From an uncultured Gammaproteobacteria bacterium (lineage in GTDB: Bacteria > Patescibacteriota > Microgenomatia > Levybacterales > UBA12049): 46,643 nucleotides of DNA. Below the pieces are notes generated by a model. It was not told the origin of the DNA. It saw nothing but the letters and a program-made list of their open reading frames with translations, and did no database searches. Within the stretch, counting starts at the first letter, position 1, and the number at the start of each line of letters is the position of its first letter. Position numbers and translations under genes: made by a program. The stretch covers positions 1 through 46,643 of the forward strand of contig CAZUZF010000002.1 of NCBI GenBank assembly GCA_964624955.1, written 5' to 3'. Of this stretch, positions 1-40,319 are shown piece by piece.

Positions 1-934
1 TAAACGGAATAAAAATTAAAAACCATATTCCATACCATGGATATATCTCTTCTCTAATAGGAGAAAGAAGAAAAACTAAAAACATGGAGATTGAGGAAAA
101 TAAAAATATTTTGTCCCAGTTTATTTGTTCTTTTTTTATTTGCTTAATAAAAAGGTAGATAAAAACTGGTATTAGAAAAATGGTTGCAAATTTTATTAAT
201 ATAGATAAAACTAAAAACATTAATCCCAATAATATTTTTTTATTCTTAACTAAATACAAAGAAAGTAAAGCAAAAAACATCATTACAATATCATTATGCG
301 CTGAGACCAATGATTCAAATATAACTAGTGGGTTAAGGGCAAAAATAAGAATTCCTTCTATGTTTTTAGAAAATCTATACATTAAATATAGGGTTAAAAG
401 ATAAAAACACAAAACAAAGAACTTAAGGTTAAATAGTATTATTAAAAACTGTCCAAATCCCAGGACAAAAGGAATTGAAGTTAACAATATCCAAAATGGA
501 CCATATAATGCAGTCTTGTTTGCAGCATGGGTAAAAAGTAAAAGCGGATCATTTGCAAACTGAATGGGCATAATTATATATGGATTTTCCAAATAAGAAA
601 AACTTACTTTTGCAGTAGCTATATAATTGAAAATGTCATAAGAAACGTTTGCGGGATATGACAAAAACAAACCAATAATAGTTATTAGAGTTAAAACAAC
701 TAGATCTTTTTTATTAAGCTTATTTTTGTTAAAAAGCCTAATAAACAAAAAGTAAAAACTAAAAAAAGAGATAATAAATAAGACATATATAAAAGTGGTG
801 ATACCTCTATAATTAAATGCAAAACCGCTGTAAACATTTTTTAAATAAATAAGGTTTGGGTCAACAAAAAGGAAGGAAAAAATAGTAAATAACAAAAGAT
901 TTGTTAAATAACCTAACTTTAATAAGTTCTTCAT
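1..934 (-). CDS. Polytopic membrane protein, partial (C-terminus runs off the left edge). Paralog of 38389..39564; DUF2029/GT87-like GT-C candidate
   Basis: Absent from the ORF track because its stop is off-window. Manual minus-strand translation from ATG at 934 gives MKNLLKLGYLTNLLLFTIFSF...SYDIFNYIATAKV...LVSAHNDIVMMFFALLSLYL...IKFATIFLIPVFIYLF...YPWYGIWFLIFIPF with no stop down to position 1. It aligns motif for motif with the 391-aa protein (SYDLFNYIFDAKI, LVSAHNDFPLVFFALLAIYLYL, IKFSTGVLLPIFVLIYYF, QPWYLIFPLSL). The ATG overlaps the upstream TGA (ATGA). Confidence 0.85.
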   Translation of the reverse strand, partial: MKNLLKLGYLTNLLLFTIFSFLFVDPNLIYLKNVYSGFAFNYRGITTFIYVLFIISFFSFYFLFIRLFNKNKLNKKDLVVLTLITIIGLFLSYPANVSYDIFNYIATAKVSFSYLENPYIIMPIQFANDPLLLFTHAANKTALYGPFWILLTSIPFVLGFGQFLIILFNLKFFVLCFYLLTLYLMYRFSKNIEGILIFALNPLVIFESLVSAHNDIVMMFFALLSLYLVKNKKILLGLMFLVLSILIKFATIFLIPVFIYLFIKQIKKEQINWDKIFLFSSISMFLVFLLSPIREEIYPWYGIWFLIFIPF

Positions 935-1458
935 AAATACTTCTGCCTAAGTTTAATTGAATCTTCGATTATTTCTTTAAGATTAAGTCTTGTTGCTTTA
1001 TCTTTTTCTGGCGTCCACACAAAAGAGTTGGGTAGACGTTTTTGCAAATCCGACAAAACCTCTACGTGTTTTAGAGAAGCTTGGGAAAGAATATTAATAT
1101 TTTGGGATATTTCCTTTCCTTGGTTTTGAGCATTTAACAAATACTGTTTTGTGTTTAAAAAAAACTTATTTGATTTCTCAAGGGCTTGATATCCCAAAAG
1201 GTATTGATTATATTCGAATAAGGTTTTTGCCTCAACTAAATACTTATCTGATTGCTTTAGATTATAAAAAAACTGCCCGAAGTTTCCAAAATACCAGTAC
1301 TTCATCACTTTTTCTTTAACTAAATTTAACTTATAAAATATACTTCCCGGCATAGCTGAAGGGTATGGAAGAACATACTCTGATCTTGCGTATGATAGAG
1401 GAGTTAAAACACAAAAAAGAGAAATAATAATAACTATAAATATAATTTTGACAAACAT
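931..1458 (-). CDS. Secreted hypothetical protein (DUF5667-like helical domain, by recollection)
   Basis: 175-aa ORF. N-terminal signal peptide MFVKIIFIVIIISLFCVLTPLSYA is followed by a YVLPYPS motif and a helical K/N/Q-rich body. ATG at 1458; TGA at 931 overlaps the next start. Confidence 0.75.
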   Translation of the reverse strand: MFVKIIFIVIIISLFCVLTPLSYARSEYVLPYPSAMPGSIFYKLNLVKEKVMKYWYFGNFGQFFYNLKQSDKYLVEAKTLFEYNQYLLGYQALEKSNKFFLNTKQYLLNAQNQGKEISQNINILSQASLKHVEVLSDLQKRLPNSFVWTPEKDKATRLNLKEIIEDSIKLRQKYL

Positions 1459-1459
1459 T

Positions 1460-2434
1460 TTATTCTCTCTGGTGCCATTGCCATGCTGTTTTTATAATAG
1501 TTTCTAAATCAGAATATTTTGGTAAAAATCCTATTTCATTTTTAATCTTTGTGGGATCAGCGACCAGTTCATCTGCGTCTCCTGCTCTTCTTTCTCTTTC
1601 TATAATATTTAGTTTTTTGCCGCTTATCTTCTCAATCTCTTCTAAAATTTCCCTGTTTGAAAATCCTTTTCCTGTTCCAACGTTATAGTAAAAACTACCG
1701 TTACTTTCTGTTATTTTTTTAAGCGCAAGTAAATGGGCCTCAACTAGATCAAGTACATGTATATAGTCTCTTATGCAGGTTCCATCAGGCGTATCATAAT
1801 CTGTACCAAAAAGACTGAAATGCCTTCCCTCAATACCTGCCCTAATTGCAAGGGGAATTATATGAGTTTCAGGATTATGAGTTTCACCCAAAAGCCCGTC
1901 TAAGGCTGCCCCACAGGCGTTAAAATACCTTAAGACACTAAAATTAATCTGCGGATGGTCTTTTATTAAATTATCCAGAAGTCTTTCTACTTCGAGTTTG
2001 TTTTTACCATATTCGCTTGTAGGGTTTTTGGGATGATCCTCGGGTATTGGGACTTTTACAGGGTTTCCGTAAACCGCAGCAGATGAAGAAAAAATCAATT
2101 TATTAACACTTCCAACGTCAATTGCTATATCAAACAAATTTTTGGAACCTATAACATTGTTTTGATAATAAATTTTGGGATTTTTGGTTGATTCTTCAAC
2201 AGAAATGTAACCTGCAAAATGCATTACAGCATCAAATTTGTTTTGGGTAAAAAGTTTTTGCAGCGAGCCTCTATCTTTTATATCACCCAAAATCAATTTT
2301 GCCCTTTGATCAACAGCTTCTTTTCTTCCCCTTTCAAGACTATCAAAAACAACTACCTCATCTCCCCTATCCAAAAGAGCCTTTGTCATAAAGCTTCCTA
2401 TATATCCTGCTCCACCTGTTACCAATATCTTCAT
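1460..2434 (-). CDS. galE: UDP-glucose 4-epimerase (SDR family)
   Basis: 324 aa. Rossmann motif MKILVTGGAGYIGS, SSSAAVYG, catalytic YxxxK (EYGKNK), and C-terminal RAGD...LVADPTK typical of GalE. Confidence 0.93.
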   Translation of the reverse strand: MKILVTGGAGYIGSFMTKALLDRGDEVVVFDSLERGRKEAVDQRAKLILGDIKDRGSLQKLFTQNKFDAVMHFAGYISVEESTKNPKIYYQNNVIGSKNLFDIAIDVGSVNKLIFSSSAAVYGNPVKVPIPEDHPKNPTSEYGKNKLEVERLLDNLIKDHPQINFSVLRYFNACGAALDGLLGETHNPETHIIPLAIRAGIEGRHFSLFGTDYDTPDGTCIRDYIHVLDLVEAHLLALKKITESNGSFYYNVGTGKGFSNREILEEIEKISGKKLNIIERERRAGDADELVADPTKIKNEIGFLPKYSDLETIIKTAWQWHQRE

Positions 2435-4710
2435 ATTTTTATTTTATCCTTTATATAATCTATTAAAGAAAAGCTGGATTTTAGCTGGTTTTTGCGAAGA
2501 TAGCCTATCAAATCATCATAGACTGAAGACTGGTTTACATTAATCCAAATCTTTTTTTCAAAATCTTGCCTTTTGACTTTAGAAAGATCAACTATGTAAA
2601 ACCCTTCGTTTATTACAGGAAGTCCCTTGGGACAGCCTTTGCCATAACAGGAAATACCAATTTTTTTGCCATTTAAATCTGTTTTTCCTTCAAAGCTCAT
2701 TCGAAGAGACAAAGGCATACTTGATGTATACATCTTATACTTAAAATCGTAGATGGAAAATTTTGTATTTGGGAATTTATCGCTTAAGTCTCTTGAAATC
2801 AATTTAGTTTCATTTCCAATAGATTTAAAAGTAAAAACAATGGGAAAGTAAGCTACATTAAAAACCACTACTAGTATAAAAACTAATATACCCAAGTACT
2901 TTACCCATTTATTTTTAAAATCTAAAAGTTCATTTATTAAATGAGTCGCAAAAATAAGAATAAATGGCAAGAAGTATAAAAGATAACCCTCTGATCTTTC
3001 TCCTTTATAAAATCTATTTACAAACAATAAAATCATAAATATTATGCCCAAAGCTATAAAAACCTTGGAAATGTTTCTTTTTAAAACCGAATAAATAAAC
3101 ATTAAAAAGCTTGAAATAAATAACAAAAATCCAACTACAGGAAAATTTCCCACAACAAATCCCCAGTAACTTGGGACATAATTAAAAACAAATAATCTCC
3201 AGGAATTGGGAACATAGATCCTATACTGACCAATTAAGAGATAATCAAGTATATTTCTTGTATTGGAAAAGTCTTGAAAATAATCCCAGTATAAAAGAGG
3301 CAGGGATGTCAGTAAAAGTCCCAAAAATACAAGAATAAAAGAAATTAATCGCTTTTTAAAAGAAAGAGGCGTTATGATAAAAGCTACAGGTAAAAATATT
3401 AAAAGATTTACAGCTTGATAATGGAAAGATATCCCAAGTCCAATAAAAATACCCATTAAAAATGCAAAAAGTAATTTTTTTCTCTGCCATAGTATTACAA
3501 AGAAGATTAGAGCAAGTGTTGCAAACATTGGTATGAAAGTGTGCGGACCTAGGGAAAGTGTTCTTGCTAAAAGCTGAGGAGAAACACAGGCAAGAATACC
3601 TAGTATAATTGAAAACTTTTCTCCTTTAAGTATCTTTCCCAAATACATCAAAAATCCAACCGTTGCAATACTTACTACTTCTAAAAATATCCAAGGGGCA
3701 TTTATCATAAAAGGCAAAACTAAATAAGCTGCCATTATAAACCAATAATAAATACCTCCAAAAACAAATGGGCCAGCACTGCTAAAAGGACCCATTAAGG
3801 GTAGCTCGTGGCGTTTTAAAGCTTCTAATGCGATCATTGCATCTCTTCCATCATCTCCGCCAAGCCCCCAACGGTCAGGAAAATTATAAAAACGGATAAG
3901 AGATGCAATTAAAAGTATAACTATAAACAAAAATTTATACGCTCCCAAATACTTTATATATGAAATCGGAAACCTTAGCGCTGAAAACAAAGAAAAGGTA
4001 AAACCTTGCCAAGAATCCATAAAGCCCTTATGTCTAAAAAATGTAGTTATAAGCCAATGCGTTGGTAATACAAAAAGATTCATAACGGCAAAAAACAATT
4101 TTTGAAAAATATTTTTCCCTTTAAGCTGGTCATTTATCTGGGTTGCAAAAATATTGTTATAAAAATCCCATTTCTTAACATAATGTTTAAAACTTGCGTA
4201 GGGATAATGAAGAAGTGCAGATTTTAAGTAACCTACTTTTCCGCTAACTTCTGCCTGTTCATGAACGTGGACCATGGGTAGCCTTCCCTTTCCCCTTCTA
4301 TATAACCTTAGAGTGTAATCGGGATATTGTCCGCCCTTCATCAGAAACCTTCCCAAAAACCAATTTTTCCTTGGCATCCAGTATCCGTTAAATTCTCCAT
4401 TATCGTTTTCCAAAATATTCTTAATTTCCTCTCTCATTTCCCTGCTTACATGTTCATCCGCATCCATTTGTAGAATCCAATCGCATTTGGCCATTTCTAT
4501 AGCCATTTGCTTATTTATATGGAAATTGGGTTTATTGGTGGTAATTTTTACTCTTGCTTTGTATTTTTTAGCAATTTCTACTGTTTTATCTTTAGAAGTA
4601 CCATCAACAATTATTATTTCATCTGCAATATCTTTAAAGCTTTCAAGACAGGCTGGAAGGTTTCTTTCCTCATTAAATGTGGCCAAAACAACGGATAAAG
4701 TTTTTCTCAT
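2431..4710 (-). CDS. Fusion protein: N-terminal GT2 glycosyltransferase domain plus C-terminal polytopic GT-C-like membrane domain
   Basis: 759 aa. Residues 1 to about 230 carry GT2 motifs (LSVVLATFNEERNL, IIIVDGTSKDKT, QMDADEHV) and are paralogous to the stand-alone GT2s at 25770 and 27427. The remainder is more than 10 TM helices with the loop motif GGDDGRDAM...GPFSSAGPFVFGGIYYW, shared with the 444-aa and 503-aa membrane proteins. Confidence 0.9.
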   Translation of the reverse strand: MRKTLSVVLATFNEERNLPACLESFKDIADEIIIVDGTSKDKTVEIAKKYKARVKITTNKPNFHINKQMAIEMAKCDWILQMDADEHVSREMREEIKNILENDNGEFNGYWMPRKNWFLGRFLMKGGQYPDYTLRLYRRGKGRLPMVHVHEQAEVSGKVGYLKSALLHYPYASFKHYVKKWDFYNNIFATQINDQLKGKNIFQKLFFAVMNLFVLPTHWLITTFFRHKGFMDSWQGFTFSLFSALRFPISYIKYLGAYKFLFIVILLIASLIRFYNFPDRWGLGGDDGRDAMIALEALKRHELPLMGPFSSAGPFVFGGIYYWFIMAAYLVLPFMINAPWIFLEVVSIATVGFLMYLGKILKGEKFSIILGILACVSPQLLARTLSLGPHTFIPMFATLALIFFVILWQRKKLLFAFLMGIFIGLGISFHYQAVNLLIFLPVAFIITPLSFKKRLISFILVFLGLLLTSLPLLYWDYFQDFSNTRNILDYLLIGQYRIYVPNSWRLFVFNYVPSYWGFVVGNFPVVGFLLFISSFLMFIYSVLKRNISKVFIALGIIFMILLFVNRFYKGERSEGYLLYFLPFILIFATHLINELLDFKNKWVKYLGILVFILVVVFNVAYFPIVFTFKSIGNETKLISRDLSDKFPNTKFSIYDFKYKMYTSSMPLSLRMSFEGKTDLNGKKIGISCYGKGCPKGLPVINEGFYIVDLSKVKRQDFEKKIWINVNQSSVYDDLIGYLRKNQLKSSFSLIDYIKDKIKI

Positions 4711-4717: not shown

Positions 4718-6376
4718 TTATAACTGATGGGCTTTTCTTTTCGCTAAGCCTATTAATAAAAGTCCTAAAATACCAACTACGCTTGTAAACGAAATCAAAT
4801 CAGACATTGTTCTCAGTTTTGTATTCTCATAAATTGCTTCAATTGTATGAGGTCTTCCTGTTACTATAAAGGTCATAAGGCCTCTGTAGTTTGGATCTTG
4901 AAACTGCATAATCTGTTTTTTACCATCTACATATATTATCCAGTTGGGAAAATATAAAATATTTACTAAAATCCTGGCACTTTGGTCTGATTTGAATTCA
5001 TATTTTCTATACGTTGTTTTATGAATAATTTCCTTAACGCTTCCTTTTCCTTCAATAACCTCAATTGGCGATTTAGGAAAATGCTCCATAAACCTTACAG
5101 ACCAGATAGGAGAACTTTCACCGGTGTCTGTGGTGCTTTTATACAAACCGTTCTCAAACTTATCCAGCGTATAAAAATATCCCTGGGGAATTGTATAACG
5201 AATGTTAAGTACCACTACCAGTATTATCAAAACTAAAATTACAAATGTCTTGTGTTTTTGTTTTATTTGTTCAGAGATCAAAGCTCCCAAGACAGATGTT
5301 GTAAATACGATTAAACCTAAAAATCTCCAGGGAAACTGGAAATTTTGCAGTAGAATTACCCTTGACCAGATAAAGTCAGAAACCGAAGACATTATAAAAA
5401 TAGAAAGAAGCGTAAACACTAAAAGACCTAGGACTAAATATAAGCTTTTATCTTTTTTTAAATATAATTTAAAAGCAATGAAGGGTGAGGCTATTAATGC
5501 AATAAGATGTACTATTCCAATTTGTATGCTAAATACTCCGCTTCCTCCAAAACTCCATGGTCCGTAAATTAAATTACCTAAATTTATAAAATTGGTTTTA
5601 TATACGCCTTGGGTCACTATATTTCTTAAAGTGTATTTTCCCTCAATCAAAGCTGGAAGCCAGAAAAACATTGAAAACGTAAAACCCAAACCAAACTGAA
5701 CTAAAAATTTAATAAGAAAACTTTTATCAAACTTTAATTTCCACCATAAAAACAATCCATATAAAAAAATTAAGGGAATTGTAATTAAGGAAATTGCATT
5801 ATGCGAAAGTATTAAAAAAGCAATTGAGAAAGACCCCAAAGACAAACTCAGATAGTCTTTTTTAACGCTTAACTTGTGTATAAAGTACAACGAGAGTGGA
5901 ATAAACGCAAAAGCGAGGTTTTCTCCTATATCCCCTCTTACAAATAAATCAATAAATCTATAGGGCGCATAAGCATATAAAACAGCTCCTAAAAGCGAAG
6001 AGCTTCTGGCCATAAACTGCTTTAGCCAAAGATACATAAAACAAAAAGACAAAATTTCACCCAATATATAAACTATTTTTGCTGAGTCCATAAATGAAAA
6101 GCCAAAAAGAACGAATAATGACGCTATATATGAAGGCAGGGGATATAAAAATTGCAAAATTGGATGGCCGTATCCCCAATTTAAAATTGATGCCCATCTT
6201 GGAATAAGTATCCCTTCGGAAAGATTTTGATAAAAAGCCATTATCCTTGCCACATGATCAACTCCATCATGGGTTTGAGGAAGTCCGGGGGCAAACAAAG
6301 ACCAAACAGGAATAAAAGCCAAAATTATAAAAAATAATATAAAAATAAGATTAGATTTCTTTATTTGTTTTAACAT
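4718..6376 (-). CDS. PTPS-related / COG5617-like polytopic membrane protein (GT-C candidate)
   Basis: 552 aa, multi-TM. First-loop motif HDGVDHVARIMAFYQNLSEGILIPRWASILNWGYGHPILQFLYPLP. C-terminal module YFPNWIIYVDGKK. Paralog of 16520, 30493 and 32178. Confidence 0.88.
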   Translation of the reverse strand: MLKQIKKSNLIFILFFIILAFIPVWSLFAPGLPQTHDGVDHVARIMAFYQNLSEGILIPRWASILNWGYGHPILQFLYPLPSYIASLFVLFGFSFMDSAKIVYILGEILSFCFMYLWLKQFMARSSSLLGAVLYAYAPYRFIDLFVRGDIGENLAFAFIPLSLYFIHKLSVKKDYLSLSLGSFSIAFLILSHNAISLITIPLIFLYGLFLWWKLKFDKSFLIKFLVQFGLGFTFSMFFWLPALIEGKYTLRNIVTQGVYKTNFINLGNLIYGPWSFGGSGVFSIQIGIVHLIALIASPFIAFKLYLKKDKSLYLVLGLLVFTLLSIFIMSSVSDFIWSRVILLQNFQFPWRFLGLIVFTTSVLGALISEQIKQKHKTFVILVLIILVVVLNIRYTIPQGYFYTLDKFENGLYKSTTDTGESSPIWSVRFMEHFPKSPIEVIEGKGSVKEIIHKTTYRKYEFKSDQSARILVNILYFPNWIIYVDGKKQIMQFQDPNYRGLMTFIVTGRPHTIEAIYENTKLRTMSDLISFTSVVGILGLLLIGLAKRKAHQL

Positions 6377-7736: not shown

Positions 7737-7740
7737 AAAA

Positions 7741-18160: not shown

Positions 18161-18165
18161 TATCT

Positions 18166-23136: not shown

Positions 23137-23166
23137 TAACTTTATTCTACCAAGTTTAACTGTAGA

Positions 23167-23195: not shown

Positions 23196-23217
23196 TATTT
23201 ATACGCAAACAAAAAGT

Positions 23218-33764: not shown

Positions 33765-36120
33765 AGAATAAAATAAAGAATAAAAGTATTAACCCCAAAG
33801 CTCCAATTCCAAGCCCAAAGGTAAAGGTTTTGGGATTGTAATAGAACTCCACTTTATGTTTGCCTTTTGGCACTTCAACTGCCCTAAAAGAATAATTTGC
33901 AAGTAAAATTTCAGTTTTTACCCCATCTACTTTTGCCTCCCATTCTGGATAGAAATTATCTGATAAAAATAGAAAACTGTTTCCTGTTGTACTTACATCA
34001 AAAATTATCCTATTGGGCTTGTATGATAAAAGCTCTGCCGAGCCAGTAGCAAAAGAATCTATAGAAAGCTTTGGCTTTTTTTCTAAAATTAATGTTTTTC
34101 TTAAATTGATATCAGGATTATAAATACTTGCTAAAGCCATTGCTTTGTTTTTGGCAATAATGTAATCTCCTGTTACAAAATATCTTGGCAACGCGTTTAT
34201 ATTCTCATAAACTTGCCATGGATATACTTTATAAGCAAGTCTGTATTGTTCTTTGGGAAAAGTATTTTCATCTGTTTGGTACCAAGCGTCTATTAACTCC
34301 TGCTTGTGCAATATATATTTAACTCCAAGTAAGTCTAATACTTTCTTTCTGTAGAAATTTTGTTTTAGATCATCCGCTCCGTAACCCCCTGCCACATTTG
34401 CGTCTGGTCTTGGAAGAATTTTTGGCAGTTTGCCATCCTTTGACGATGCAAGTAGCTCTGTATAGGAAAGAATGTGCAACGGATCGTTTCCCTCAGGAGA
34501 ATATGTACCGTCAACGCTTTGGAAATTGGCTGGAATATATGCGCTCCCATATCCCCAAAATCTGTTTATTCCCCCCGTTTTACTTAAATAGGATATTACA
34601 GGTGTGTTTGGATATGTAAAACTTATTGGTGCAAAAGGAGTAATTTTATTAAAAAAATAAAAAAGGTCAAAAACAATAAGAAATGTAAGTAACAGTATTG
34701 ATAATTTAAGATTAAATCTTTTAAGAAAGACTGCAATCACTGTAACAAACATTAAACCCGATGGGATTACCAGATTCCTAAGGGTTATTTTTAAATTAAC
34801 AGACAAATCCGGATTTGCCTTCATTAATACTAAAACAATTATCCAGATTAGGGAAAACGAAATGATTGCAAAATAAATAATTTTTTTTGAAAAACTCTTT
34901 GTTTGAATAAAATGATTTATACCGATTGCAGCTAAAACAATTAATGAGAAGATAAAAATACTAAGTTCTCTTGTTGCAACTGTTGTTGAAATAACAGGAA
35001 TAGGGATTAAATAAAAGTACTTAACTAAAGGAAAATTTGTAGCAATCACTAAAGAAACAATTCCTACCAATATAAAAAACTTTCTCTCTTTTACATTAAT
35101 CTTTGTAAAAATAGCGTAAAGAGCAAAAAACAAGATTGCAACCGACGGATACATTACTCTTTCTATATAAGTTCCGTCTAGAAAGTAGTTTCTTGTTGCA
35201 GGATGTCCAAAGAAATCAGGAATAGCTATGGTGATAAGATTAAAAATTGGAGAAAGATTTTTTTCTAATTGCAAAAGTGAATAGGCGCCTCTTGTACTTT
35301 GGGAAAAAAGTTTAAGCGTTGGAAGCAATTGAAAAGATGTAATTAAAAAAGGTAGAAATAAGGAAACTAAAAACAAGAAATTTTTTTTATGTTTTTGAAG
35401 GCTTCCCTTTTTACCAAAGACAAGAAAACTATAGTACAAAAAGCAAAGCAAGTAAATATAAAATACTCCCTGGATGTATCCTGCAAGTATAGAAAAGACA
35501 AAGGACAAACAAATCCCCAAGAAATTTACAATACTTGCCTTCTCAAAATATCTTTTGGTAAAAAATAAAATTAAAGGAAGCCATAAAAGAGTGCTGCCTA
35601 TATTTCCGTACTCAATCCAAACAGTCATATAAGAAGAAAAGCTAAAGGAAATACCCCCAAGGAAAGATGCGACATCCGAGAGATTAATTGATTTTCTAAG
35701 AAACAAATACATGAAAAATCCTGCCAGAAGGGGCTGGAGCATAATAATAATTGTCCAGGCCAAATTAAAAGGCAAAATAAAATACAAAAGGTTAAAAGGA
35801 TAAAAAAATGCGGTTTGGAAATTGGCCATCTGCGGGTTGCCTGAAAAATTATGAGGGTTCCAAAATGGAATACTGAACTGTCTTAACGTATTTATGGAGA
35901 AATACCGCCACGGATATATTTCGGTAATAACATCAGGGCCTTGGGCTTTATTCGGATATCCCCCTGGAGCAAACCCTAAGAAAGATTCTGACCTATAAGG
36001 ATTTTGATTTACTAAAAGATCTCCGGGGAATGGAATATAGCCTTTAAAAACAGGCCAGAAAAATAAAAGTACGATAGCACCGATTAATAAAAAAGGCCAA
36101 AATCTTTGTAACCATTTCAT
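33736..36120 (-). CDS. YfhO-family polytopic membrane protein (GT-C)
   Basis: 794 aa. Motifs YPWRYFSINTLRQFSIPFWNPHNFSGNPQMANFQTAFFYPFNLLYF and C-terminal LSDNFYPEWEAKVDGV...KGKHKVEFYYNP. Confidence 0.9.
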   Translation of the reverse strand: MKWLQRFWPFLLIGAIVLLFFWPVFKGYIPFPGDLLVNQNPYRSESFLGFAPGGYPNKAQGPDVITEIYPWRYFSINTLRQFSIPFWNPHNFSGNPQMANFQTAFFYPFNLLYFILPFNLAWTIIIMLQPLLAGFFMYLFLRKSINLSDVASFLGGISFSFSSYMTVWIEYGNIGSTLLWLPLILFFTKRYFEKASIVNFLGICLSFVFSILAGYIQGVFYIYLLCFLYYSFLVFGKKGSLQKHKKNFLFLVSLFLPFLITSFQLLPTLKLFSQSTRGAYSLLQLEKNLSPIFNLITIAIPDFFGHPATRNYFLDGTYIERVMYPSVAILFFALYAIFTKINVKERKFFILVGIVSLVIATNFPLVKYFYLIPIPVISTTVATRELSIFIFSLIVLAAIGINHFIQTKSFSKKIIYFAIISFSLIWIIVLVLMKANPDLSVNLKITLRNLVIPSGLMFVTVIAVFLKRFNLKLSILLLTFLIVFDLFYFFNKITPFAPISFTYPNTPVISYLSKTGGINRFWGYGSAYIPANFQSVDGTYSPEGNDPLHILSYTELLASSKDGKLPKILPRPDANVAGGYGADDLKQNFYRKKVLDLLGVKYILHKQELIDAWYQTDENTFPKEQYRLAYKVYPWQVYENINALPRYFVTGDYIIAKNKAMALASIYNPDINLRKTLILEKKPKLSIDSFATGSAELLSYKPNRIIFDVSTTGNSFLFLSDNFYPEWEAKVDGVKTEILLANYSFRAVEVPKGKHKVEFYYNPKTFTFGLGIGALGLILLFFILFYVRNNQKTL

Positions 36121-37643
36121 GTTTTTGGAACAACTTGATAAACTCGATAATAAGAACCGTTATTTCCTTGCTCTACCTGAAATATTAATTCTAAAGGAAA
36201 GTCAGCTGGTATAACCTGGTGTTCTTTTTGATAAAAGATAAAATAGGTCGGCATTTTCTTTGCATATTTCAAAACCTCTTTTGGAAATTTATCAACCGGC
36301 CAGTAGCCTTTTATAATGACGTTTTTATTATCTACCAAATACATTTCCATTGCCTCTGGCATTAATCCAAATGTACCTTGGGTTGCAACGAAGATTTTTT
36401 TGTCATAAGACTCTTTTTTAAAAAATGCAACACTCTCCTTTACTCCCCAGCCGGCAGCCCAGTTGTTTACATATTGGCTGTTATCTGCTTTTGCAATTTG
36501 TGAATTTATAGGATCATAAGCAAACTGAAAAGATACAAATCCGCTATAACCAACAAAGACAATCGTTAATACAACTGTGTAGATAACGTTGGGAATTTTC
36601 AGTTTAATTTGTTGACTTGTAAAGGTAATTAGATACTCAAGTCCCCAAGCAGCTTGTGGCAAAAGCATTAAGCTCATAAAGAAAATAAATCTTGGGAAGA
36701 TTACTCTTCCAAAAAGGGCAAGGGCTACAAATGGAAGAAGAAAATAAAGAGAAAGAAGTGCTTTTTCTTTGGTAAATTTTGTAATAAATATATATGAAAT
36801 AACAATTAAAGCAAGGTATGGCAATTTCAAATACTGTGTAAGCCAGCTGAATAAACCGTTAAGATTCCCTATAAAAAAAGTAAAGGGATGCTCAAGCCAC
36901 TCGTTAAGAGGGTAAACAAAGATTGCATTCTTGGCACTGATCATCTGAAAAAGAGGAGAAAGTCTTAAAATATTGTATAGACCGTAGGCAATAGCCGCTG
37001 AAAATCCCGCAAATACAATAAATCTTAAAAGTTTTTTTACTATTTCTTTATCCTTAAAATTAAAAAGGATAAGTAAAAACGGCAAAAGATAAATACTGAA
37101 AAAATTTGCAGTTTTTGTAAGTACACCTGCCGCTATAACAAAACCAAGGGTATAAGCTATATCAAGTCTGGTTTTTCTTACTAAAACAACTGAAAAATAT
37201 GTTGCCCAGACAAAAAAAGTTCCAACCATACTATCATATAAAGCCATTCTGTCTAAAACTTGGGCAAAGGGATAGAACACATAAAGAATTGAAGATAAGA
37301 ATGCAGTCCTTCTACTTTTAAAAAGCTCGTAGGTCAAAAACCAAAGACCAATCATAGTAAAAAAACCACTCACTACAGAAACAAGTCTTGCTGCAATAAG
37401 GGGGTCATTGATAAATTTCATAAAAACTATTACTGCCCAGACAAACATAGGCTGTTTTCCATCGGTTAAAGAGATAAATCTCCATGAGGAATCGTTTAGG
37501 GCAATCTGTGCCCACCTGGTATAAATTGCCTCATCTGTAAACATTGGGAGCCTATCTAGAAAAATTAACCTTAAAAGAAAATAAGAAGCAACGATAAAGA
37601 CAGATAGTATAATTTCATTCCTAAACCTGGATAAAAGCTTCAT
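36117..37643 (-). CDS. ArnT-like GT-C membrane glycosyltransferase (GT39/GT83-like)
   Basis: 508 aa. First-loop DE motif LPMFTDEAIYTRWAQ, more than 10 TM helices and a soluble C-terminal domain. First gene after the predicted promoter at 37650-37678. Confidence 0.85.
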   Translation of the reverse strand: MKLLSRFRNEIILSVFIVASYFLLRLIFLDRLPMFTDEAIYTRWAQIALNDSSWRFISLTDGKQPMFVWAVIVFMKFINDPLIAARLVSVVSGFFTMIGLWFLTYELFKSRRTAFLSSILYVFYPFAQVLDRMALYDSMVGTFFVWATYFSVVLVRKTRLDIAYTLGFVIAAGVLTKTANFFSIYLLPFLLILFNFKDKEIVKKLLRFIVFAGFSAAIAYGLYNILRLSPLFQMISAKNAIFVYPLNEWLEHPFTFFIGNLNGLFSWLTQYLKLPYLALIVISYIFITKFTKEKALLSLYFLLPFVALALFGRVIFPRFIFFMSLMLLPQAAWGLEYLITFTSQQIKLKIPNVIYTVVLTIVFVGYSGFVSFQFAYDPINSQIAKADNSQYVNNWAAGWGVKESVAFFKKESYDKKIFVATQGTFGLMPEAMEMYLVDNKNVIIKGYWPVDKFPKEVLKYAKKMPTYFIFYQKEHQVIPADFPLELIFQVEQGNNGSYYRVYQVVPKT

Positions 37644-37692: not shown

Positions 37693-38349
37693 TTATACTA
37701 TTGCCTTCTCGGGAGAGATCTGAGGAATTTTAGATCCAGGAAGATAAAGCCTACCTTCAATAATTAGTTGGAATATGTTTGCAGGCGTAACGCCTGGAAG
37801 AGTCTCAATACCTACCTCTTCTCTTGCTAAATCTGGGAACGCTACTATTAATTCACCCTCAACTACCTTTTCTGCTATATCAGCATCACGCTCGTCCACG
37901 AAGGTATGTAGCATTACAACGTCTCGCAATACTGCCTTTGTTCCTTCATTTTCTACCTCCTCAAAAGTATCTAGTGCCAAAGCTACATCTGGAACGACAT
38001 CCCAAGGCTCCTCTGAAGGGTCAAAATAAGCAAGATCAGTTCCCCTTCTTGCTTCTCTCATGGACTTTTGTAATGCTATGATACGCTTTGTGTAGTCTGG
38101 ATTTATGTCGGCAATTCTTCTCCATGCTAAATCTACTGGTTGCCAGGAACCCTGTGATCCATTATATTGCCTAGTCCTATCAATCAAATGTCTTTCTGCA
38201 ATTCTTTCGGCGATACAAGCTAAGCTTGTTCCTTGTACTGAAAGTTCTTTAGGTGTAACAAGAGGTCTCACTGCACCAGAAGTCCCATTAAGATCTAAGC
38301 TAGGCTGTTGAGGAATTGTTCTACCTTCTTCACCTGGAAATCCTGCCAT
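37693..38349 (-). CDS. Hypothetical soluble acidic protein with no recognisable domain
   Basis: 218-aa ORF, ATG start, no TM segment. The N-terminal roughly 40 aa are G/P/S/T-rich and the rest looks helical. It is the longest frame in a locally more G+C-rich patch, has the same strand as its neighbours, and has its own promoter-like element. No family recognised. Confidence 0.65.
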   Translation of the reverse strand: MAGFPGEEGRTIPQQPSLDLNGTSGAVRPLVTPKELSVQGTSLACIAERIAERHLIDRTRQYNGSQGSWQPVDLAWRRIADINPDYTKRIIALQKSMREARRGTDLAYFDPSEEPWDVVPDVALALDTFEEVENEGTKAVLRDVVMLHTFVDERDADIAEKVVEGELIVAFPDLAREEVGIETLPGVTPANIFQLIIEGRLYLPGSKIPQISPEKAIV

Positions 38350-38355
38350 AGACGG

Positions 38356-38384: not shown

Positions 38385-38388
38385 TAGG

Positions 38389-39564
38389 TTATTTTGAAAA
38401 TAGTTTTAGCTTTGCAAAATATAGAATTGTGAAAGTTATTGTGGCAAATAACCCAAGATATTCAATATTTACAATTATTTGCGGGTATCCTTTTGCATAG
38501 TCTGTCATATAAACATATACAACATAAATTAGAACCATAAATATTGAGGCAAGCAAACACGGTATAAATATAAAATATTTTCTTGATACAAACGCACATA
38601 AGGAAAGAGGAAAAATTAAATACCAGGGCTGAAAAGTAGTCCTAAGTGTTGCAAAAACCACTGCAACCAAAGAAAATACAACACCAATTAAAAATATATT
38701 TTCCCAAATTACCTTTTTTTGTGTCTTTTCAAAATAATAAATTAGGACAAAAATTGGAAGAAGAACACCTGTTGAAAATTTAATCCCTATGGAAAAGATT
38801 AAAGAAAGCAAAGACAAAGCTTTCCTTTTAGTTAAATAAAGATAAATTGCCAAAAGCGCAAAAAATACTAATGGAAAGTCGTTATGCGCAGAAACCAACC
38901 CTTCAATTAAGATAAGAGGGTTAAATGCAAAAAACACTGTGTTAAAGATCGCATTCTTTGGGAAAAGAATATTTGATATTTTATAGATTAAATAAACACT
39001 TCCAAGAAAGGATAGTCCAATCATTATCTTAAATAAAAAAAACGTTGGTAAAAACATATTAAATCCAATAAAAGACAAGGGTACTGTTAAAGCTAGCCAG
39101 CTTGGGCCGTAAGGATAAACTCTGTGAGTCCAACGCATAAAGTTAAGCATTGGATCATTTGTAAAATCCAAAGGCTTATGAAGATACGGATTTTGTCCAT
39201 AGTGAGTTAATATTTTTGCGTCAAAAATATAATTAAAAAGATCATAAGAAAATGCATTATATGAAAATACCAAAATTATAAATGTTAGAAAAATAAGTAT
39301 TTTGGTTGTATTTAATTTCAGCTTTTCTTTTTTTGCAAGATATAAAAACGATAAATAAAACAAAAACAGTAAAAAGGAGATTACAGAAAATATCAATGTA
39401 GAAAGCGGTCTATCAAAAAACCCAATATATTGAAGTTGTTTTTGTAAGGCTTGATAAATAGAGCTTTGGGATAAAGTTAGACTTAAATCTACCTGAGTAA
39501 AAGAATAAAAAAATAAAGCAATTACTACTATTATATATAGGGAGAAAAGATTTATTCTTTTCAT
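38389..39564 (-). CDS. Polytopic membrane protein, DUF2029/GT87-like GT-C candidate
   Basis: 391 aa, about 10 TM. Motifs SYDLFNYIFDAKILTHYGQNPY, VYPYGPSWLAL and LVSAHNDFPLVFFALL. Paralog of the partial gene at 1..934. ATGA-coupled to the upstream GT2. Confidence 0.85.
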   Translation of the reverse strand: MKRINLFSLYIIVVIALFFYSFTQVDLSLTLSQSSIYQALQKQLQYIGFFDRPLSTLIFSVISFLLFLFYLSFLYLAKKEKLKLNTTKILIFLTFIILVFSYNAFSYDLFNYIFDAKILTHYGQNPYLHKPLDFTNDPMLNFMRWTHRVYPYGPSWLALTVPLSFIGFNMFLPTFFLFKIMIGLSFLGSVYLIYKISNILFPKNAIFNTVFFAFNPLILIEGLVSAHNDFPLVFFALLAIYLYLTKRKALSLLSLIFSIGIKFSTGVLLPIFVLIYYFEKTQKKVIWENIFLIGVVFSLVAVVFATLRTTFQPWYLIFPLSLCAFVSRKYFIFIPCLLASIFMVLIYVVYVYMTDYAKGYPQIIVNIEYLGLFATITFTILYFAKLKLFSK

Positions 39565-40319
39565 AAATCATTGTATTTTCCTGTTAAAGAATTAAATCTT
39601 ATACGCACAAGGTCCTCAACCGCCTCTATAGAGTCTTTGATGGGACTTACCCTTCTTGATTCAACATACAGCCATTCAACAGGAACTTCTTTTATCTTAT
39701 ATCCCATTTTTTCAGCAAGATATAAAAGTTCAACGTCAAATCCAGCTTTTACGGATGAACCAGATATTTTTACAAATCCATTATGTAAAGACTGGATTTT
39801 TGAAAAAAGCCTATCTGATGCGTCTTTTCTAAAAAGCTTAAAACCGCACTGTGTATCGGAAACATCTCTTACTCCTACCAGAATTGACCTCATTATCATC
39901 ATTCCTTTTGCCATTAAAAGCCTTGTCCAGGGAGCACCCTTTCTTTGAGAGTTTCTACTCCCTATTACAACGTCATATTTTTTGGTAAAAGGTAAAAGGT
40001 GATTTACCTCTTCAATTGGAGTTGCCTGATCCATGTCTGTAAACAAAACAAACTCTCCTTTTGAAGCAAGCATTCCCGAGGTTACTGCTCCGGCTTTACC
40101 CAGATGTTGGTTTTTTATTATCCTAAACTGGGGACTTTCTTTTATAAACCTTTCAACGTATTCAATGCTTCCATCATCAGATCCGTCATCTACAATGATA
40201 ACCTCATAATTATACTTTTGTTTTTCTAGGAAATGTTCAACCCTGTCTAGTACTCCTTTTCGAAGATTTGTCATTTCATTATATGAGGGGATTACAACGG
40301 AAAGATAGATTTTACTCAC
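39561..40319 (-). CDS. GT2 glycosyltransferase, DPM1/dolichyl-phosphate glucosyltransferase-like (candidate polyprenol-phosphate sugar synthase)
   Basis: 252 aa with a GTG start (no upstream in-frame ATG). Motifs LSVVIPSYNEMTNL, IIVDDGSDDGS, LFTDMDQAT and GFDVELLYLAEKMGYKI. Confidence 0.87.
   Translation of the reverse strand: MSKIYLSVVIPSYNEMTNLRKGVLDRVEHFLEKQKYNYEVIIVDDGSDDGSIEYVERFIKESPQFRIIKNQHLGKAGAVTSGMLASKGEFVLFTDMDQATPIEEVNHLLPFTKKYDVVIGSRNSQRKGAPWTRLLMAKGMMIMRSILVGVRDVSDTQCGFKLFRKDASDRLFSKIQSLHNGFVKISGSSVKAGFDVELLYLAEKMGYKIKEVPVEWLYVESRRVSPIKDSIEAVEDLVRIRFNSLTGKYNDL

What the first reader, a model, noticed from the sequence alone, without database searches (positions are those of the whole stretch)
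1..40319. A 40-kb single-strand super-array of 17 GT-C-type membrane proteins together with their lipid-sugar supply genes
Seen: from 1 to 40319 every gene but one is on the minus strand. Outside the plus-strand gene interruption, gaps between genes are 0-55 nt, with many start/stop overlaps.

Seventeen of about 30 proteins are 390-800-aa polytopic membrane proteins in five paralog groups:
- GT39/PMT_2-like: 9249, 10891, 12533, 14820, plus ArnT-like 36117
- PTPS-related: 4718, 16520, 30493, 32178
- YfhO: 19799, 23423, 33736
- D-x-GRD family: 2431 (C-terminal half), 6432, 7741
- DUF2029/GT87-like: 1..934, 38389

Interleaved with them are 7 GT2s, one fused GT2 domain, a GT4, a Wzx flippase, a methyltransferase and GalE.

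Established: GT-C enzymes (PMT, ArnT, YfhO, GtrC) use polyprenol-phosphate sugars. Those donors are made by GtrB/CsbB/Dpm1-like GT2s and flipped across the membrane, and the GT-C enzymes then glycosylate proteins, teichoic acids or lipids outside the cell.

Inference: this looks like a combinatorial extracytoplasmic glycosylation factory, far larger than the characterised 3-gene modules. No priming phosphoglycosyltransferase, Wzy/ligase or obvious acceptor protein is visible. The glycan and its target are therefore unknown. If the genome is small, as the lineage guess implies, committing about 40 kb to this is striking.
Basis: partly seen in the sequence, partly recalled or inferred. Interest (0 to 1): 0.75.

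Follow-up and report, generated by a model that had tools for sequence, protein, structure and literature searches.

The report
Giant membrane glycosyltransferase array in Levybacteria
A tiny-genome groundwater bacterium (Levybacteria, candidate phyla radiation) devotes over 40 kb, roughly 5% of a genome of this size, to a conserved row of 17 membrane enzymes that probably attach lipid-carried sugars to an unknown target outside the cell.

Summary
From 1 to 40319 there are 30 minus-strand genes and one plus-strand gene (a 75-aa DUF5652). Seventeen genes encode polytopic membrane proteins in five old paralog groups (27-38% identity).

All 17 belong to the GT-C superfamily. Pfam, profile-profile links (80-99.7%; a Wzx control scored below 1%) and a conserved Asp after the first helix all point that way. 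Models of one YfhO and one PTPS_related protein match only GT-C enzymes, not transporters.

Three of the seven GT2s resemble polyprenyl-phosphate-sugar synthases. GalE, a MOP flippase, a GT4 and a methyltransferase complete the set. No priming transferase, GtrA or clear Wzy was found.

The array is not an assembly artefact. Independent assemblies, including one 863-kb contig, keep the same gene order with one-to-one orthologs. Forty-six loci from related genomes carry a median of 8 GT-C genes per 21 kb. The window's array is cut off by the contig end.

My preferred reading is an extracytoplasmic assembly line for a lineage-conserved envelope glycan, similar in logic to mycobacterial LM/LAM synthesis. 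Protein O-glycosylation is the main rival. The target is unknown.

Verdict: a new variant of a known kind.

The parts
2..934 (-). g2: MptA/GT87-like GT-C. Its C-terminus is cut off by the contig end.
   Evidence: Pfam GT87 at E 3e-4, below threshold. 38% identical to g38389. 8 hydropathy peaks. 22 orthologs in related loci, at a fixed position after g931.
931..1458 (-). g931: small secreted or membrane-anchored helical protein (DUF5667-like). Conserved array member of unknown role.
   Evidence: Pfam DUF5667 at E 8.5e-6, just under the cut-off. One N-terminal TM or signal segment. Found between GalE and the MptA-like gene in 24 related ORFs.
1460..2434 (-). GalE, UDP-glucose 4-epimerase.
   Evidence: TIGR01179 at 394.5 bits against a cut-off of 262.3. 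Pfam Epimerase at E 5e-54.
2431..4710 (-). g2431: fusion of an N-terminal GmaR/SunS-like GT2 domain with a C-terminal GT-C domain carrying a GDDGRD motif.
   Evidence: Glycos_transf_2 at E 7e-20 plus a weak PMT_2 hit. The C-terminal family links to PMT2 at 98.8% and to g7741 at 100% by hhalign. Most relatives carry it as two adjacent genes.
4718..6376 (-). g4718: PTPS_related GT-C.
   Evidence: PF10131 at E 1.8e-8. 10 TM peaks. Orthologs at 51-59% identity.
6432..7766 (-). g6432: divergent PMT_2-like GT-C (YDQVDN motif).
   Evidence: PMT_2 at 33.1 bits, above the cut-off. EpsG at 24.5 bits, below its cut-off. hhalign to PMT2 99.4%. D54 conserved in 100% of the family.
7741..9252 (-). g7741: divergent PMT_2-like GT-C (YDVGRD motif) with an extra C-terminal extracytoplasmic domain.
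   Evidence: PMT_2 at 26.7 bits against a cut-off of 26.1. hhalign to PMT2 99.5% over about 400 columns. No NCBIfam hit. Family found in 78 Microgenomates loci.
9249..10898 (-). g9249: PMT_2 (GT39/GT83-like) GT-C.
   Evidence: PMT_2 at E 7e-11. WDE motif after TM1.
10891..12528 (-). g10891: PMT_2/PMT GT-C.
   Evidence: PMT_2 at E 2e-16 and PMT at E 8e-15. Family profile hits ArnT 5EZM at E 1.8e-5. Orthologs about 70% identical.
12533..14230 (-). g12533: PMT_2 GT-C.
   Evidence: PMT_2 at E 1e-14.
14227..14817 (-). SAM-dependent methyltransferase.
   Evidence: Methyltransf_23 at E 1.5e-16. Conserved at the same position in relatives.
14820..16523 (-). g14820: PMT/PMT_2 GT-C. Absent from some relatives.
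   Evidence: PMT at E 4e-8 and PMT_2 at E 3e-6. Absent in L005 and L006, present in L018 and L023.
16520..18169 (-). g16520: PTPS_related GT-C.
   Evidence: PF10131 at E 2e-20. AF2 model with pLDDT 75.5 and pTM 0.83. Foldseek top hits PglB, STT3, AftA and AftD.
18166..18876 (-). g18166: soluble GT2, polyprenyl-phosphate-sugar synthase-like.
   Evidence: Best PDB hit is P. furiosus Dol-P-Man synthase 5MLZ at E 8e-22 over residues 1-213, followed by ArnC and GtrB. Near-full-length NCBIfam hits to AglJ and PpgS; PgfS matches residues 1-174.
18873..19796 (-). g18873: GT2, EpsD/MftF-like, with one C-terminal TM segment.
19799..22060 (-). g19799: YfhO-family GT-C.
   Evidence: PF09586 at E 5e-22. 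33-34% identical to the other two YfhO proteins.
22057..23208 (-). g22057: GT4 (GT-B) glycosyltransferase. The true start is probably the ATG 24 codons downstream of the listed TTG.
   Evidence: Glycos_transf_1 at E 8e-19. Orthologs are 357-360 aa.
23218..23445 (+). DUF5652: small membrane protein and the only plus-strand gene. It marks the break between two transcription units.
   Evidence: PF18893 at E 3e-22. Same place and orientation in L005 and L006.
23423..25762 (-). g23423: YfhO-family GT-C.
   Evidence: PF09586 at E 3e-17.
25770..26516 (-). g25770: GT2, GmaR/SunS-like subgroup.
26513..27421 (-). g26513: GT2, rhamnosyltransferase/GlfT1-like.
27427..28347 (-). g27427: GT2, GmaR/SunS-like subgroup.
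   Evidence: Best PDB hit is GmaR at E 7e-18, then SunS.
28349..29803 (-). Wzx-type MOP-family flippase.
   Evidence: Polysacc_synt_3 at E 2e-48. NCBIfam MOP flippase, O-glycosylation flippase and TuaB. 11 TM peaks.
29790..30506 (-). g29790: soluble GT2, polyprenyl-phosphate-sugar synthase-like.
   Evidence: ArnC at E 3e-23 over nearly the full length, plus AglJ, PgfS and PpgS.
30493..32181 (-). g30493: PTPS_related GT-C with a YfhO-type C-terminal region.
   Evidence: PF10131, PMT_2 and the YfhO C-terminus.
32178..33764 (-). g32178: PTPS_related GT-C.
   Evidence: PF10131 at E 5e-10.
33736..36120 (-). g33736: YfhO-family GT-C.
   Evidence: PF09586 at E 5e-23. AF2 model with pLDDT 89.3 and pTM 0.90. 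Foldseek top 26 hits are all GT-C. The C-terminus resembles PgfM1/PgfM2.
36117..37643 (-). g36117: ArnT/PMT_2-like GT-C.
   Evidence: PMT_2 at E 2e-11. hhalign to PMT2 99.5%. TDE motif.
37693..38349 (-). g37693: soluble 218-aa protein of unknown function. A rare insert, probably not a core array part.
   Evidence: No Pfam or NCBIfam hit. Absent at this spot in L001-L004. Only 10 representatives among 1.84 billion proteins.
38389..39564 (-). g38389: MptA/MptB-like GT-C.
   Evidence: TIGR03459 (MptA) at E 2e-10, below threshold. Orthologs carry PF26314 MptA_B_family in the precomputed Pfam annotation. 9 TM peaks.
39561..40319 (-). g39561: soluble GT2, polyprenyl-phosphate-sugar synthase-like. 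First gene of the array.
   Evidence: Best PDB hits are Dol-P-Man synthase 5MLZ at E 2e-16, GtrB 5EKP and ArnC. Overlaps the MptA-like gene by 4 nt.

Best explanation

**Proposed steps**
1. In the cytoplasm, GalE supplies UDP-hexose epimers.
2. Three soluble DPM1/ArnC/GtrB-like GT2s (g39561, g29790, g18166) load single sugars onto polyprenyl phosphate.
3. The other GT2s and the GT4 build or prime a lipid-linked glycan. The methyltransferase modifies it.
4. The Wzx-type MOP flippase moves lipid-linked material across the membrane.
5. Outside, 17 GT-C enzymes from five families each add a defined residue or linkage.

**Preferred target**
Each paralog has its own ortholog in the same order across Levybacteria. 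I therefore think the product is one lineage-conserved, complex envelope glycan, either a lipoglycan or a wall polysaccharide, assembled mostly outside the cell. The logic resembles mycobacterial LM/LAM and arabinogalactan synthesis.

**Shown versus inferred**
- Shown: family and fold assignments, conservation and synteny.
- Inferred: donor chemistry, the flipping step, the order of action and the acceptor.
For: **GT-C identity**
- Pfam hits.
- Profile-profile links among all membrane families at 80-99.7%, with a Wzx control below 1%.
- The PMT2 profile hits ArnT.
- High-confidence YfhO and usable PTPS models match only GT-C structures.
- An acidic residue just after TM1 is present in all 17 proteins and conserved in at least 94% of most families.

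**Donor supply**
- Two of the three short GT2s have Dol-P-Man synthase, ArnC and GtrB as best solved relatives. The third, g29790, matches ArnC, AglJ and PpgS in NCBIfam.
- GalE is an equivalog-level match, and a MOP flippase is present.

**Conserved product**
- One-to-one orthologs at 50-75% identity against 27-38% for paralogs, in the same order, in 0.8-Mb relatives.
- 46 loci carry a median of 8 GT-C genes per 21 kb, with 97% of array genes co-oriented.

**Glycan rather than protein acceptor**
- Two MptA/B-like genes.
- No priming phosphoglycosyltransferase in the window or among the recurrent genes of relatives' arrays.
- The beta-rich C-terminal domains of the YfhO and PTPS models partly match glycoside-hydrolase accessory domains. 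Carbohydrate-binding modules bind glycan acceptors in EmbC, AftD and GT136 (PMC11127046).
Against: - No enzyme activity, glycan or acceptor has been observed. All functions are inferred from homology.
- YfhO and PMT-family enzymes also O-glycosylate proteins.
- The GmaR/SunS-like GT2 subgroup has protein- and peptide-glycosylating relatives.
- No GtrA-type flippase was found. It is unknown whether the single MOP flippase handles polyprenyl-monophosphate sugars.
- The three putative synthases lack the C-terminal membrane helices of GtrB and the archaeal DPMS.
- NCBIfam matches are all far below equivalog cut-offs except for GalE.
- The rest of the genome was not seen. A priming enzyme, a ligase or an LCP transferase may be encoded elsewhere.
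Confidence: 0.55

Rival explanations
1. The array is a protein O-glycosylation machine. The GT-C enzymes (PMT_2/PMT-like, and YfhO-like as in PgfM1 and PgtC2) move sugars from polyprenyl-phosphate donors onto Ser/Thr-rich regions of surface proteins such as S-layer proteins, pilins or membrane-anchored proteins. Different paralogs would serve different acceptors or extend the O-glycan.
For: - PMT and PMT_2 hits.
- The YfhO C-terminus matches PgfM1/PgfM2, the GT2s match PgfS, and GalE parallels PgfE.
- YfhO-family PgtC2 and PgfM1 O-glycosylate Ser/Thr-rich disordered regions in streptococci (bioRxiv 10.1101/2024.05.05.592596).
- The Wzx-type flippase also matches an 'O-glycosylation flippase' model.
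- GT2 subgroup B resembles GmaR and SunS.
Against: - Seventeen enzymes in five families is far more than any known bacterial O-glycosylation system uses.
- No acceptor gene and no Ser/Thr-rich protein lies inside the array.
- No MIR-type domain was seen. The C-terminal domains look like carbohydrate-binding beta-sandwiches.
- MptA/B-like members point to glycan extension.
Confidence: 0.2
2. The array is a co-located collection of several independent small modules, each a GT2 synthase plus a few GT-C enzymes. The modules would decorate different targets (wall polymer, lipid and proteins) rather than form one assembly line.
For: - Three separate synthase-like GT2s each sit directly next to GT-C genes: g39561 with g38389, g29790 with g30493, and g18166 with g16520.
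- DUF5652 splits the array into two units.
- Copy number varies in the PMT_2 and g7741-like blocks.
- Other Microgenomates carry smaller sub-arrays of about 5 GT-C genes.
Against: - The whole order is kept as a single block across Levybacteria, with 4-nt overlaps typical of co-translated operons.
- Only one flippase, one epimerase and one methyltransferase serve the whole set in the window.
Confidence: 0.2
3. The array is an artefact: a chimeric contig or mis-assembled collapse or expansion of paralogs, or membrane proteins that are transporters rather than glycosyltransferases.
For: None found. The only weak points are the below-threshold Pfam scores for g2, g2431C and g38389.
Against: - Paralogs are only 21-38% identical.
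- GC and GC3 are uniform, and GC skew is monotonic.
- The same order occurs in JGI, ENA, Logan and NCBI assemblies.
- Fold searches return GT-C enzymes and not transporters.
- The Wzx negative control scored below 1% in hhalign.
Confidence: 0.02

Closest known systems
Three-component extracytoplasmic glycosylation systems: GtrA/GtrB/GtrC, CsbB/GtcA/YfhO, and the GT136 systems with a MATE flippase (PMC11127046; PMC5836110 listed)
   Same: - A GT2 that makes a polyprenyl-phosphate-sugar.
- A flippase.
- A GT-C that transfers the sugar outside the membrane.
- YfhO-family members are present.
- As in GT136 systems, the flippase here belongs to a large multi-spanning transporter family (there MATE, here a Wzx-type MOP protein) rather than being GtrA-like.
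   Different: - 17 GT-C genes and 3 synthase-like GT2s instead of one of each.
- No GtrA/GtcA.
- The synthase-like GT2s lack membrane anchors.
- The set is conserved across a lineage as a core feature. It is not a serotype-converting accessory module.
Streptococcus mutans Pgf cluster (PgfS, PgfM1, PgfE, PgfM2) and the streptococcal GtrB/PgtC2 pair (PMC5856776; bioRxiv 10.1101/2024.05.05.592596)
   Same: The same four component types are clustered: a GT2, YfhO-type GT-C enzymes and a GalE-like epimerase. The window proteins give NCBIfam hits to PgfS and PgfM1/M2.
   Different: - Those hits lie far below the equivalog cut-offs (26 bits against 1400-1500, and 63-75 bits against 500).
- Pgf has 2 GT-C enzymes, while this array has 17 in five families.
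- The Pgf locus includes its adhesin acceptors. No acceptor is visible here.
LM/LAM and arabinogalactan machinery of mycobacteria and corynebacteria (PimE, MptA/B/C, EmbA/B/C, AftA-D, Ppm1)
   Same: - Many different GT-C enzymes act in sequence outside the membrane on one growing glycan, using polyprenyl-phosphate-sugars.
- MptA/B-family members, cytoplasmic GT4 and GT2 steps, carbohydrate-binding-type C-terminal domains and partial clustering are shared.
- Fold searches return AftD, AftA and Emb.
   Different: - Different phylum, with distant sequences (9-16% identity in the structural alignments).
- No DPPR/DPA pathway genes.
- Here the genes form one contiguous array in a genome of about 0.8-1 Mb. 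In mycobacteria the GT-C genes are spread over a 4.4-Mb genome (this last point is from general knowledge).
ArnC/ArnT lipid A modification
   Same: The PMT_2 group profile hits ArnT 5EZM at E 1.8e-5. g29790 aligns with ArnC over nearly its full length at E 3e-23.
   Different: No Ara4N synthesis genes are present. Scores are far below the ArnT and ArnC equivalog cut-offs (30.6 against 567 bits, and 82 against 529 bits). A lipid A acceptor is unlikely in this lineage (from general knowledge).

Membership tests
GT-C glycosyltransferase superfamily (Pfam clan CL0111) | Polytopic membrane protein with about 7-13 transmembrane helices | tested here: met
   7-12 Kyte-Doolittle peaks in all 17 proteins. 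The models show helical bundles.
GT-C glycosyltransferase superfamily (Pfam clan CL0111) | Significant match to a family of the clan | tested here: met
   - 14 of 17 proteins pass a Pfam gathering score for PMT_2, PMT, PTPS_related or YfhO.
- g2431C, g2 and g38389 fall below threshold. They are linked by hhalign (98.8% for g2431C; 80-87% for the MptA-like group) and by the PF26314 annotation of orthologs.
- PMC7801869 lists PTPS_related, PMT, PMT_2 and GT87 in CL0111.
GT-C glycosyltransferase superfamily (Pfam clan CL0111) | GT-C three-dimensional fold | tested here: met
   Tested for two representatives, YfhO g33736 and PTPS g16520. The top 26 Foldseek hits of each are all GT-C enzymes. The other three groups were not modelled and rest on profile links only.
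GT-C glycosyltransferase superfamily (Pfam clan CL0111) | Conserved acidic catalytic residue in the first extracytoplasmic loop | tested here: met
   An Asp, DE or DxxRD motif lies 10-40 residues after TM1 in all 17 proteins and is at least 94% conserved in most families. That the loop faces outward is inferred, not measured.
GT-C glycosyltransferase superfamily (Pfam clan CL0111) | Uses polyprenyl-phosphate-linked or polyprenyl-diphosphate-linked sugar donors | not testable with these tools
   Needs biochemistry.
Gtr-type three-component system | GtrA/GtcA-type small flippase | tested here: not met
   No GtrA-like Pfam hit among any tiling ORF of the window. Only a Wzx-type MOP flippase is present.
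Gtr-type three-component system | GtrB-type GT2 with C-terminal membrane helices | tested here: inconclusive
   The catalytic domains of g18166 and g39561 match GtrB, DPMS and ArnC, and g29790 matches ArnC in NCBIfam. None of the three has a predicted TM helix.
Polyprenyl-phosphate glycosyltransferases (DPM1/GtrB/ArnC type GT2) | Closest characterised relatives are polyprenyl-phosphate-sugar synthases, aligned over the catalytic domain | tested here: met
   - g18166 hits 5MLZ at E 8e-22 over residues 1-213.
- g39561 hits 5MLZ at E 2e-16.
- g29790 hits ArnC at E 3e-23 over residues 3-217.

The other four GT2s do not show this pattern.
S. mutans Pgf system | Equivalog-level matches to PgfS, PgfM1 and PgfM2 | tested here: not met
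   Scores are 63-75 bits against a cut-off of 500 for PgfS, and 23-26 bits against 1400-1500 for PgfM1/M2.
Wzx/Wzy-dependent polysaccharide pathway | Initiating phosphoglycosyltransferase (WecA/WbaP type) in the locus | tested here: not met
   None in the window. None among the recurrent unclassified genes of 78 related loci. One could still be encoded elsewhere in the genome.
Wzx/Wzy-dependent polysaccharide pathway | Wzy polymerase | tested here: inconclusive
   The only hint is g6432 against EpsG, at 24.5 bits and below the 30.1 cut-off. The same protein is 99.4% linked to PMT_2 by hhalign.
Wzx/Wzy-dependent polysaccharide pathway | Wzx (MOP) flippase | tested here: met
   Polysacc_synt_3 at E 2e-48. 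NCBIfam MOP flippase at E 1e-37.
MptA/MptB mannosyltransferases (GT87-related) | Match to the MptA or MptA_B family models | tested here: inconclusive
   - g38389 scores 39.9 bits on TIGR03459, against a cut-off of 439.
- It has no hit in the local Pfam copy.
- Its 62-71% identical orthologs are annotated PF26314 in the precomputed data.

The most novel reading that the evidence does not exclude
Levybacteria, and in reduced form other Microgenomates, build a lineage-defining and structurally complex envelope lipoglycan or wall glycan almost entirely outside the cell, with no locus-encoded priming phosphoglycosyltransferase. They would do this with about 20 GT-C enzymes from five or more families encoded in one contiguous array of about 50 kb.

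Several of these families lack a good model. The g7741/g6432 'D-x-GRD' group scores only marginally on PMT_2, and several membrane families in relatives have no Pfam hit at all.

This would be an independent, CPR-specific counterpart of the mycobacterial LM/LAM and arabinogalactan system. It would probably be central to how these episymbionts present their surface to hosts.
Probability: 0.3. Interest if true: 0.8.

Novelty: new variant of a known kind. Interest (0 to 1): 0.62.

Why it matters
CPR bacteria have tiny genomes and depend on other cells, and their envelope chemistry is essentially unknown. This lineage keeps about 5% of its coding capacity as one syntenic block of outward-facing glycosyltransferases. 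That argues the resulting surface glycan is essential to its biology, for example in attachment, host recognition, or protection from phage and predators.

The array gives a concrete gene set for follow-up:
- three candidate lipid-sugar synthases;
- one flippase;
- 17 transferases with identifiable catalytic Asp residues.

These can be used for heterologous biochemistry and for interpreting cryo-ET, lectin or glycomics data from enrichments. The array also exposes divergent GT-C families that current family libraries barely recognise. I found no description of it in six full-text searches of the held library.

Tried and rejected
1. **Exact look-up of g33736**. Found nothing, although the identical protein P0001 was later returned by the homolog search.
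2. **Concatenated query**. I joined g6432, g7741 and g16520 into one query for the search for homologous proteins to save a search.
   - As a result, the g7741/g6432 and MptA-like groups could not be given deep alignments for structure prediction.
3. **Profile searches against PDB sequences.** The PTPS, g7741/g6432, MptA-like and YfhO groups gave no hit at E <= 1. Only the PMT_2 group reached ArnT.
4. **Promoter and terminator scans**. Counts were at or below the shuffle expectation, so they say nothing about operon boundaries.
5. **GT4 g22057 against solved structures**. Only generic GT4 matches came back, with no PimA-like or lipid-GT signal.
6. **Literature searches**. Searches combining Patescibacteria, CPR, Levybacteria or Microgenomates with YfhO, GT-C or glycosyltransferase found no paper describing such arrays.
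7. **g6432 as a Wzy/EpsG-type polymerase.** Considered and set aside. The hit is below threshold, and the profile link to PMT_2 is much stronger.
8. **g37693 as horizontally acquired.** Its GC is 0.42 but its GC3 is 0.27, the same as its neighbours. The composition difference therefore reflects amino-acid content, not foreign codon usage.

Full report
**Observation**

All 36 ORFs that tile the 46,643-bp window lie on the minus strand. GC is a uniform 0.29-0.38 and cumulative GC skew falls steadily. Within 1-40319 the only plus-strand gene is a 75-aa ORF at 23218-23445. It is a clear DUF5652 member (PF18893, E 3e-22).

Gaps between neighbouring genes range from -29 to +55 nt, with 17 overlaps. 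The one exception is the 214-nt interval that holds DUF5652.

- five PMT_2/PMT proteins;
- four PTPS_related proteins;
- three YfhO proteins;
- three marginal PMT_2 proteins (g6432, g7741 and the C-terminal half of g2431);
- two MptA/GT87-like proteins (g2 and g38389);
- seven GT2s plus one fused GT2 domain, a GT4, a Wzx-type flippase, a methyltransferase and GalE.

GalE passes its equivalog cut-off, at 394 bits against 262. The 17 membrane proteins have 7-12 hydropathy peaks each and account for about 28 of the 40.3 kb.

**Paralogs and the artefact question**

All-against-all BLASTP reproduces the five groups at only 21-38% identity. A collapsed or duplicated assembly is therefore excluded.

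The window is a complete NCBI contig: P0001 is 100% identical and its longest contig is 46,643 bp. Homologs of g33736 and g10891 at 50-87% identity are named Levybacteria or Patescibacteria.

Four fetched regions show the same gene order end to end. Two come from one 863-kb JGI contig. The other two represent a second organism, sampled from an 818-kb JGI contig and a 46.9-kb Logan contig. The shared order includes DUF5652 on the opposite strand between a YfhO gene and the GT4.

Every window paralog has its own ortholog there at 45-75% identity, while paralogs stay near 30%. The paralogs therefore predate these species and are kept individually.

**Distribution**

A scan of one genome per species with the g7741-family alignment found 78 loci. 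Almost all are Levybacteria. More distant ones come from Gottesman-, Curtiss-, Shapiro- and Woesebacteria. Some TPA records are mislabelled in their titles as Gammaproteobacteria.

I classified ORFs in these loci against the window proteins.
- The 46 loci of at least 20 kb carry a median of 8 full-length GT-C genes per roughly 21 kb (range 1-12).
- 97% of array genes are co-oriented.
- PMT_2 copy number ranges from 0 to 5, and g7741-like copy number from 1 to 5.
- Non-Levybacteria Microgenomates have smaller sub-arrays of about 5 GT-C genes.

Relatives continue past the window's left end with PTPS, GT4, a membrane protein, a second Wzx and a GT2. The window's array is therefore truncated, and the full array approaches 50 kb. 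Against an 863-kb contig, 40 kb is about 4.7%.

**Are they GT-C enzymes?**

I built deep family alignments from the loci and compared them with hhalign.

| Comparison | hhalign probability |
|---|---|
| g7741 family vs PMT_2 | 99.5% |
| g6432 family vs PMT_2 | 99.4% |
| g2431C vs PMT_2 | 98.8% |
| g36117 family vs PMT_2 | 99.5% |
| PTPS vs PMT_2 | 98.5% |
| PTPS vs YfhO | 99.7% |
| MptA-like group vs other GT-C families (best links) | 80-87% |
| Wzx control vs any family | below 1% |

The PMT_2 profile hits ArnT 5EZM at E 1.8e-5. The other profiles have no sequence-level PDB hit.

An AlphaFold model of YfhO g33736, built from 50 sequences, reached pLDDT 89.3 and pTM 0.90. Its top 26 Foldseek PDB hits are all GT-C enzymes: AftD, STT3, ArnT, AglB, PglB, EmbC and DPY19. 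Transporters appear only near E 0.7 with probability about 0.05.

A model of PTPS_related g16520, built from only six sequences, still reached pLDDT 75.5 and pTM 0.83. It also matches only GT-C enzymes at the top: PglB, STT3, AftA, AftD, Emb, Pmt4 and ALG3.

All 17 proteins keep an acidic residue shortly after the first helix. The motifs are WDE, NDE, VDE or TDE in the PMT_2-like proteins and H-D or D-D in PTPS. The g7741/g6432/g2431C group has YDVGRD, YDQVDN and GDDGRD. The YfhO proteins have xPD or xTD, and the MptA-like proteins have VD. PMC7801869 lists PTPS_related, PMT, PMT_2 and GT87 in Pfam clan CL0111.

**Supply genes**

The seven GT2s fall into three kinds.
- **Synthase-like:** g18166, g29790 and g39561 (236-252 aa, no TM). 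g18166 and g39561 have P. furiosus Dol-P-Man synthase 5MLZ as best solved relative (E 8e-22 and 2e-16), followed by ArnC and GtrB. All three match AglJ, ArnC, PpgS and PgfS in NCBIfam. They are the most conserved genes of the array, at 68-75% identity in L001-L006.
- **Polymer or oligosaccharide type:** g18873 and g26513 resemble EpsD, rhamnosyltransferase and GlfT1 enzymes.
- **GmaR/SunS-like:** g25770, g27427 and the g2431 N-terminal domain form a subgroup. Its best solved relatives are Listeria GmaR (E 7e-18) and SunS.

The g2431 GT2-plus-GT-C fusion is two adjacent genes in most relatives. That ties this GT2 functionally to its GT-C neighbour.

The flippase is a MOP-family protein. No GtrA-type flippase and no priming phosphoglycosyltransferase is present in the window. 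The only Wzy hint is a below-threshold EpsG hit for g6432. None of these appears among the recurrent unclassified genes of relatives' arrays either. Those are instead GT4s, second MOP flippases, a UDP-sugar dehydrogenase and several membrane proteins with no Pfam hit.

**Mechanism**

The shown facts fit extracytoplasmic glycosylation that depends on polyprenyl-phosphate-sugars. Known examples are three-component systems (PMC11127046, which also documents a non-GtrA flippase and carbohydrate-binding modules in GT-C enzymes) and YfhO-type systems. YfhO enzymes act on teichoic acids or on Ser/Thr-rich protein regions (bioRxiv 10.1101/2024.05.05.592596).

I favour one conserved glycan assembly line, LM/LAM-like in logic, for four reasons:
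- strict one-to-one orthology and synteny;
- two MptA/B-like members;
- no primer in the locus;
- beta-sandwich C-terminal domains that partly match glycoside-hydrolase accessory domains.

Protein O-glycosylation and a mixture of independent modules remain live rivals. The acceptor is unknown.

**Comparison and novelty**

The component types are all known. Four things are new:
- the scale, with 17 GT-C genes and more in relatives, against one or two in characterised modules;
- the contiguity of the genes;
- the conservation of the block across a CPR lineage with genomes of about 0.8-1 Mb;
- the presence of GT-C families that current libraries barely detect.

Six full-text searches found no description of it. 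Absence from that library is not proof that it is unpublished. I class it as a new variant of a known kind, with interest 0.62.

**What failed**

- A concatenated-query shortcut wasted the last homolog search. Three of the five GT-C groups therefore rest on profile links rather than models.
- Promoter and terminator scans were uninformative.

Noticed in passing
window 23218-23445 (+); L005 1765-2004; L006 2382-2618: A DUF5652 small membrane protein sits on the opposite strand. Its 3' end overlaps the 3' end of a YfhO gene, and it is divergent from the GT4. The position and orientation are the same in two relatives. Its function is unknown, and it marks the only break in the array.
   Followed up: partly
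window 37693-38349 (-): A soluble 218-aa protein with no family hit is inserted between the MptA-like and ArnT-like genes. It is absent at this spot in L001-L004. Only 10 representatives exist among 1.84 billion proteins. Its GC is 0.42 but its GC3 matches its neighbours.
   Followed up: partly
L005 2070-4163 (863-kb relative): A 697-aa protein fuses a PMT_2-type GT-C domain to a C-terminal PBP dimerisation domain (E 2.5e-10). It lies inside the relative's array and may link the system to the peptidoglycan synthesis machinery.
   Followed up: no
window 2431-4710 (-), and loci such as L022, L026 and L069: The GT2-plus-GT-C fusion g2431 occurs fused in only about 6 related ORFs. Most relatives have an adjacent 255-265-aa GT2 and a 480-535-aa membrane protein instead.
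   Followed up: partly
window 25770-26516, 27427-28347 and 2431-3200 (-): This GT2 subgroup has Listeria GmaR (a flagellin O-GlcNAc transferase) and SunS (a peptide S-glycosyltransferase) as its best solved relatives. That raises the possibility of a cytoplasmic protein- or peptide-glycosylating step.
   Followed up: no
window 22057-23208 (-): The mechanical TTG start of the GT4 is probably too far upstream. Orthologs are 357-360 aa, and an ATG 24 codons downstream (MRIGIYDPY) fits them.
   Followed up: partly
window 40836-46465: Downstream of the array lie several unrelated genes.
- A tRNA-Glu(CTC) on the plus strand.
- A likely copper-handling cluster: a P-type ATPase with a heavy-metal-binding domain (40942-43173), a 61-aa YHS-like ORF (43647-43832), a 91-aa membrane ORF (43340-43615) and a membrane-anchored AhpC/TlpA-like redoxin (45812-46465).
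- Three ORFs with no Pfam hit (43838-45733).
   Followed up: no
L033 6214-8148; L035 15551-17359; L057 8227-9969; L063 19484-20869; L062 15399-16562; L082 5176-6336: Several recurrent polytopic membrane proteins in relatives' arrays (386-644 aa, in up to 19 loci) have no Pfam hit at all. They may be further unrecognised GT-C families.
   Followed up: no
window 40366-40743 (-): A 125-aa soluble ORF with no family hit lies just upstream of the array's first gene. Its GC is 0.41 but its codon third positions are typical of the contig.
   Followed up: no
L001 19694-20983: The 863-kb relative has a 429-aa phosphodiesterase/sulfatase-superfamily gene inside the GT2 block. The window lacks it. It might add or remove phosphate-linked substituents.
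   Followed up: no
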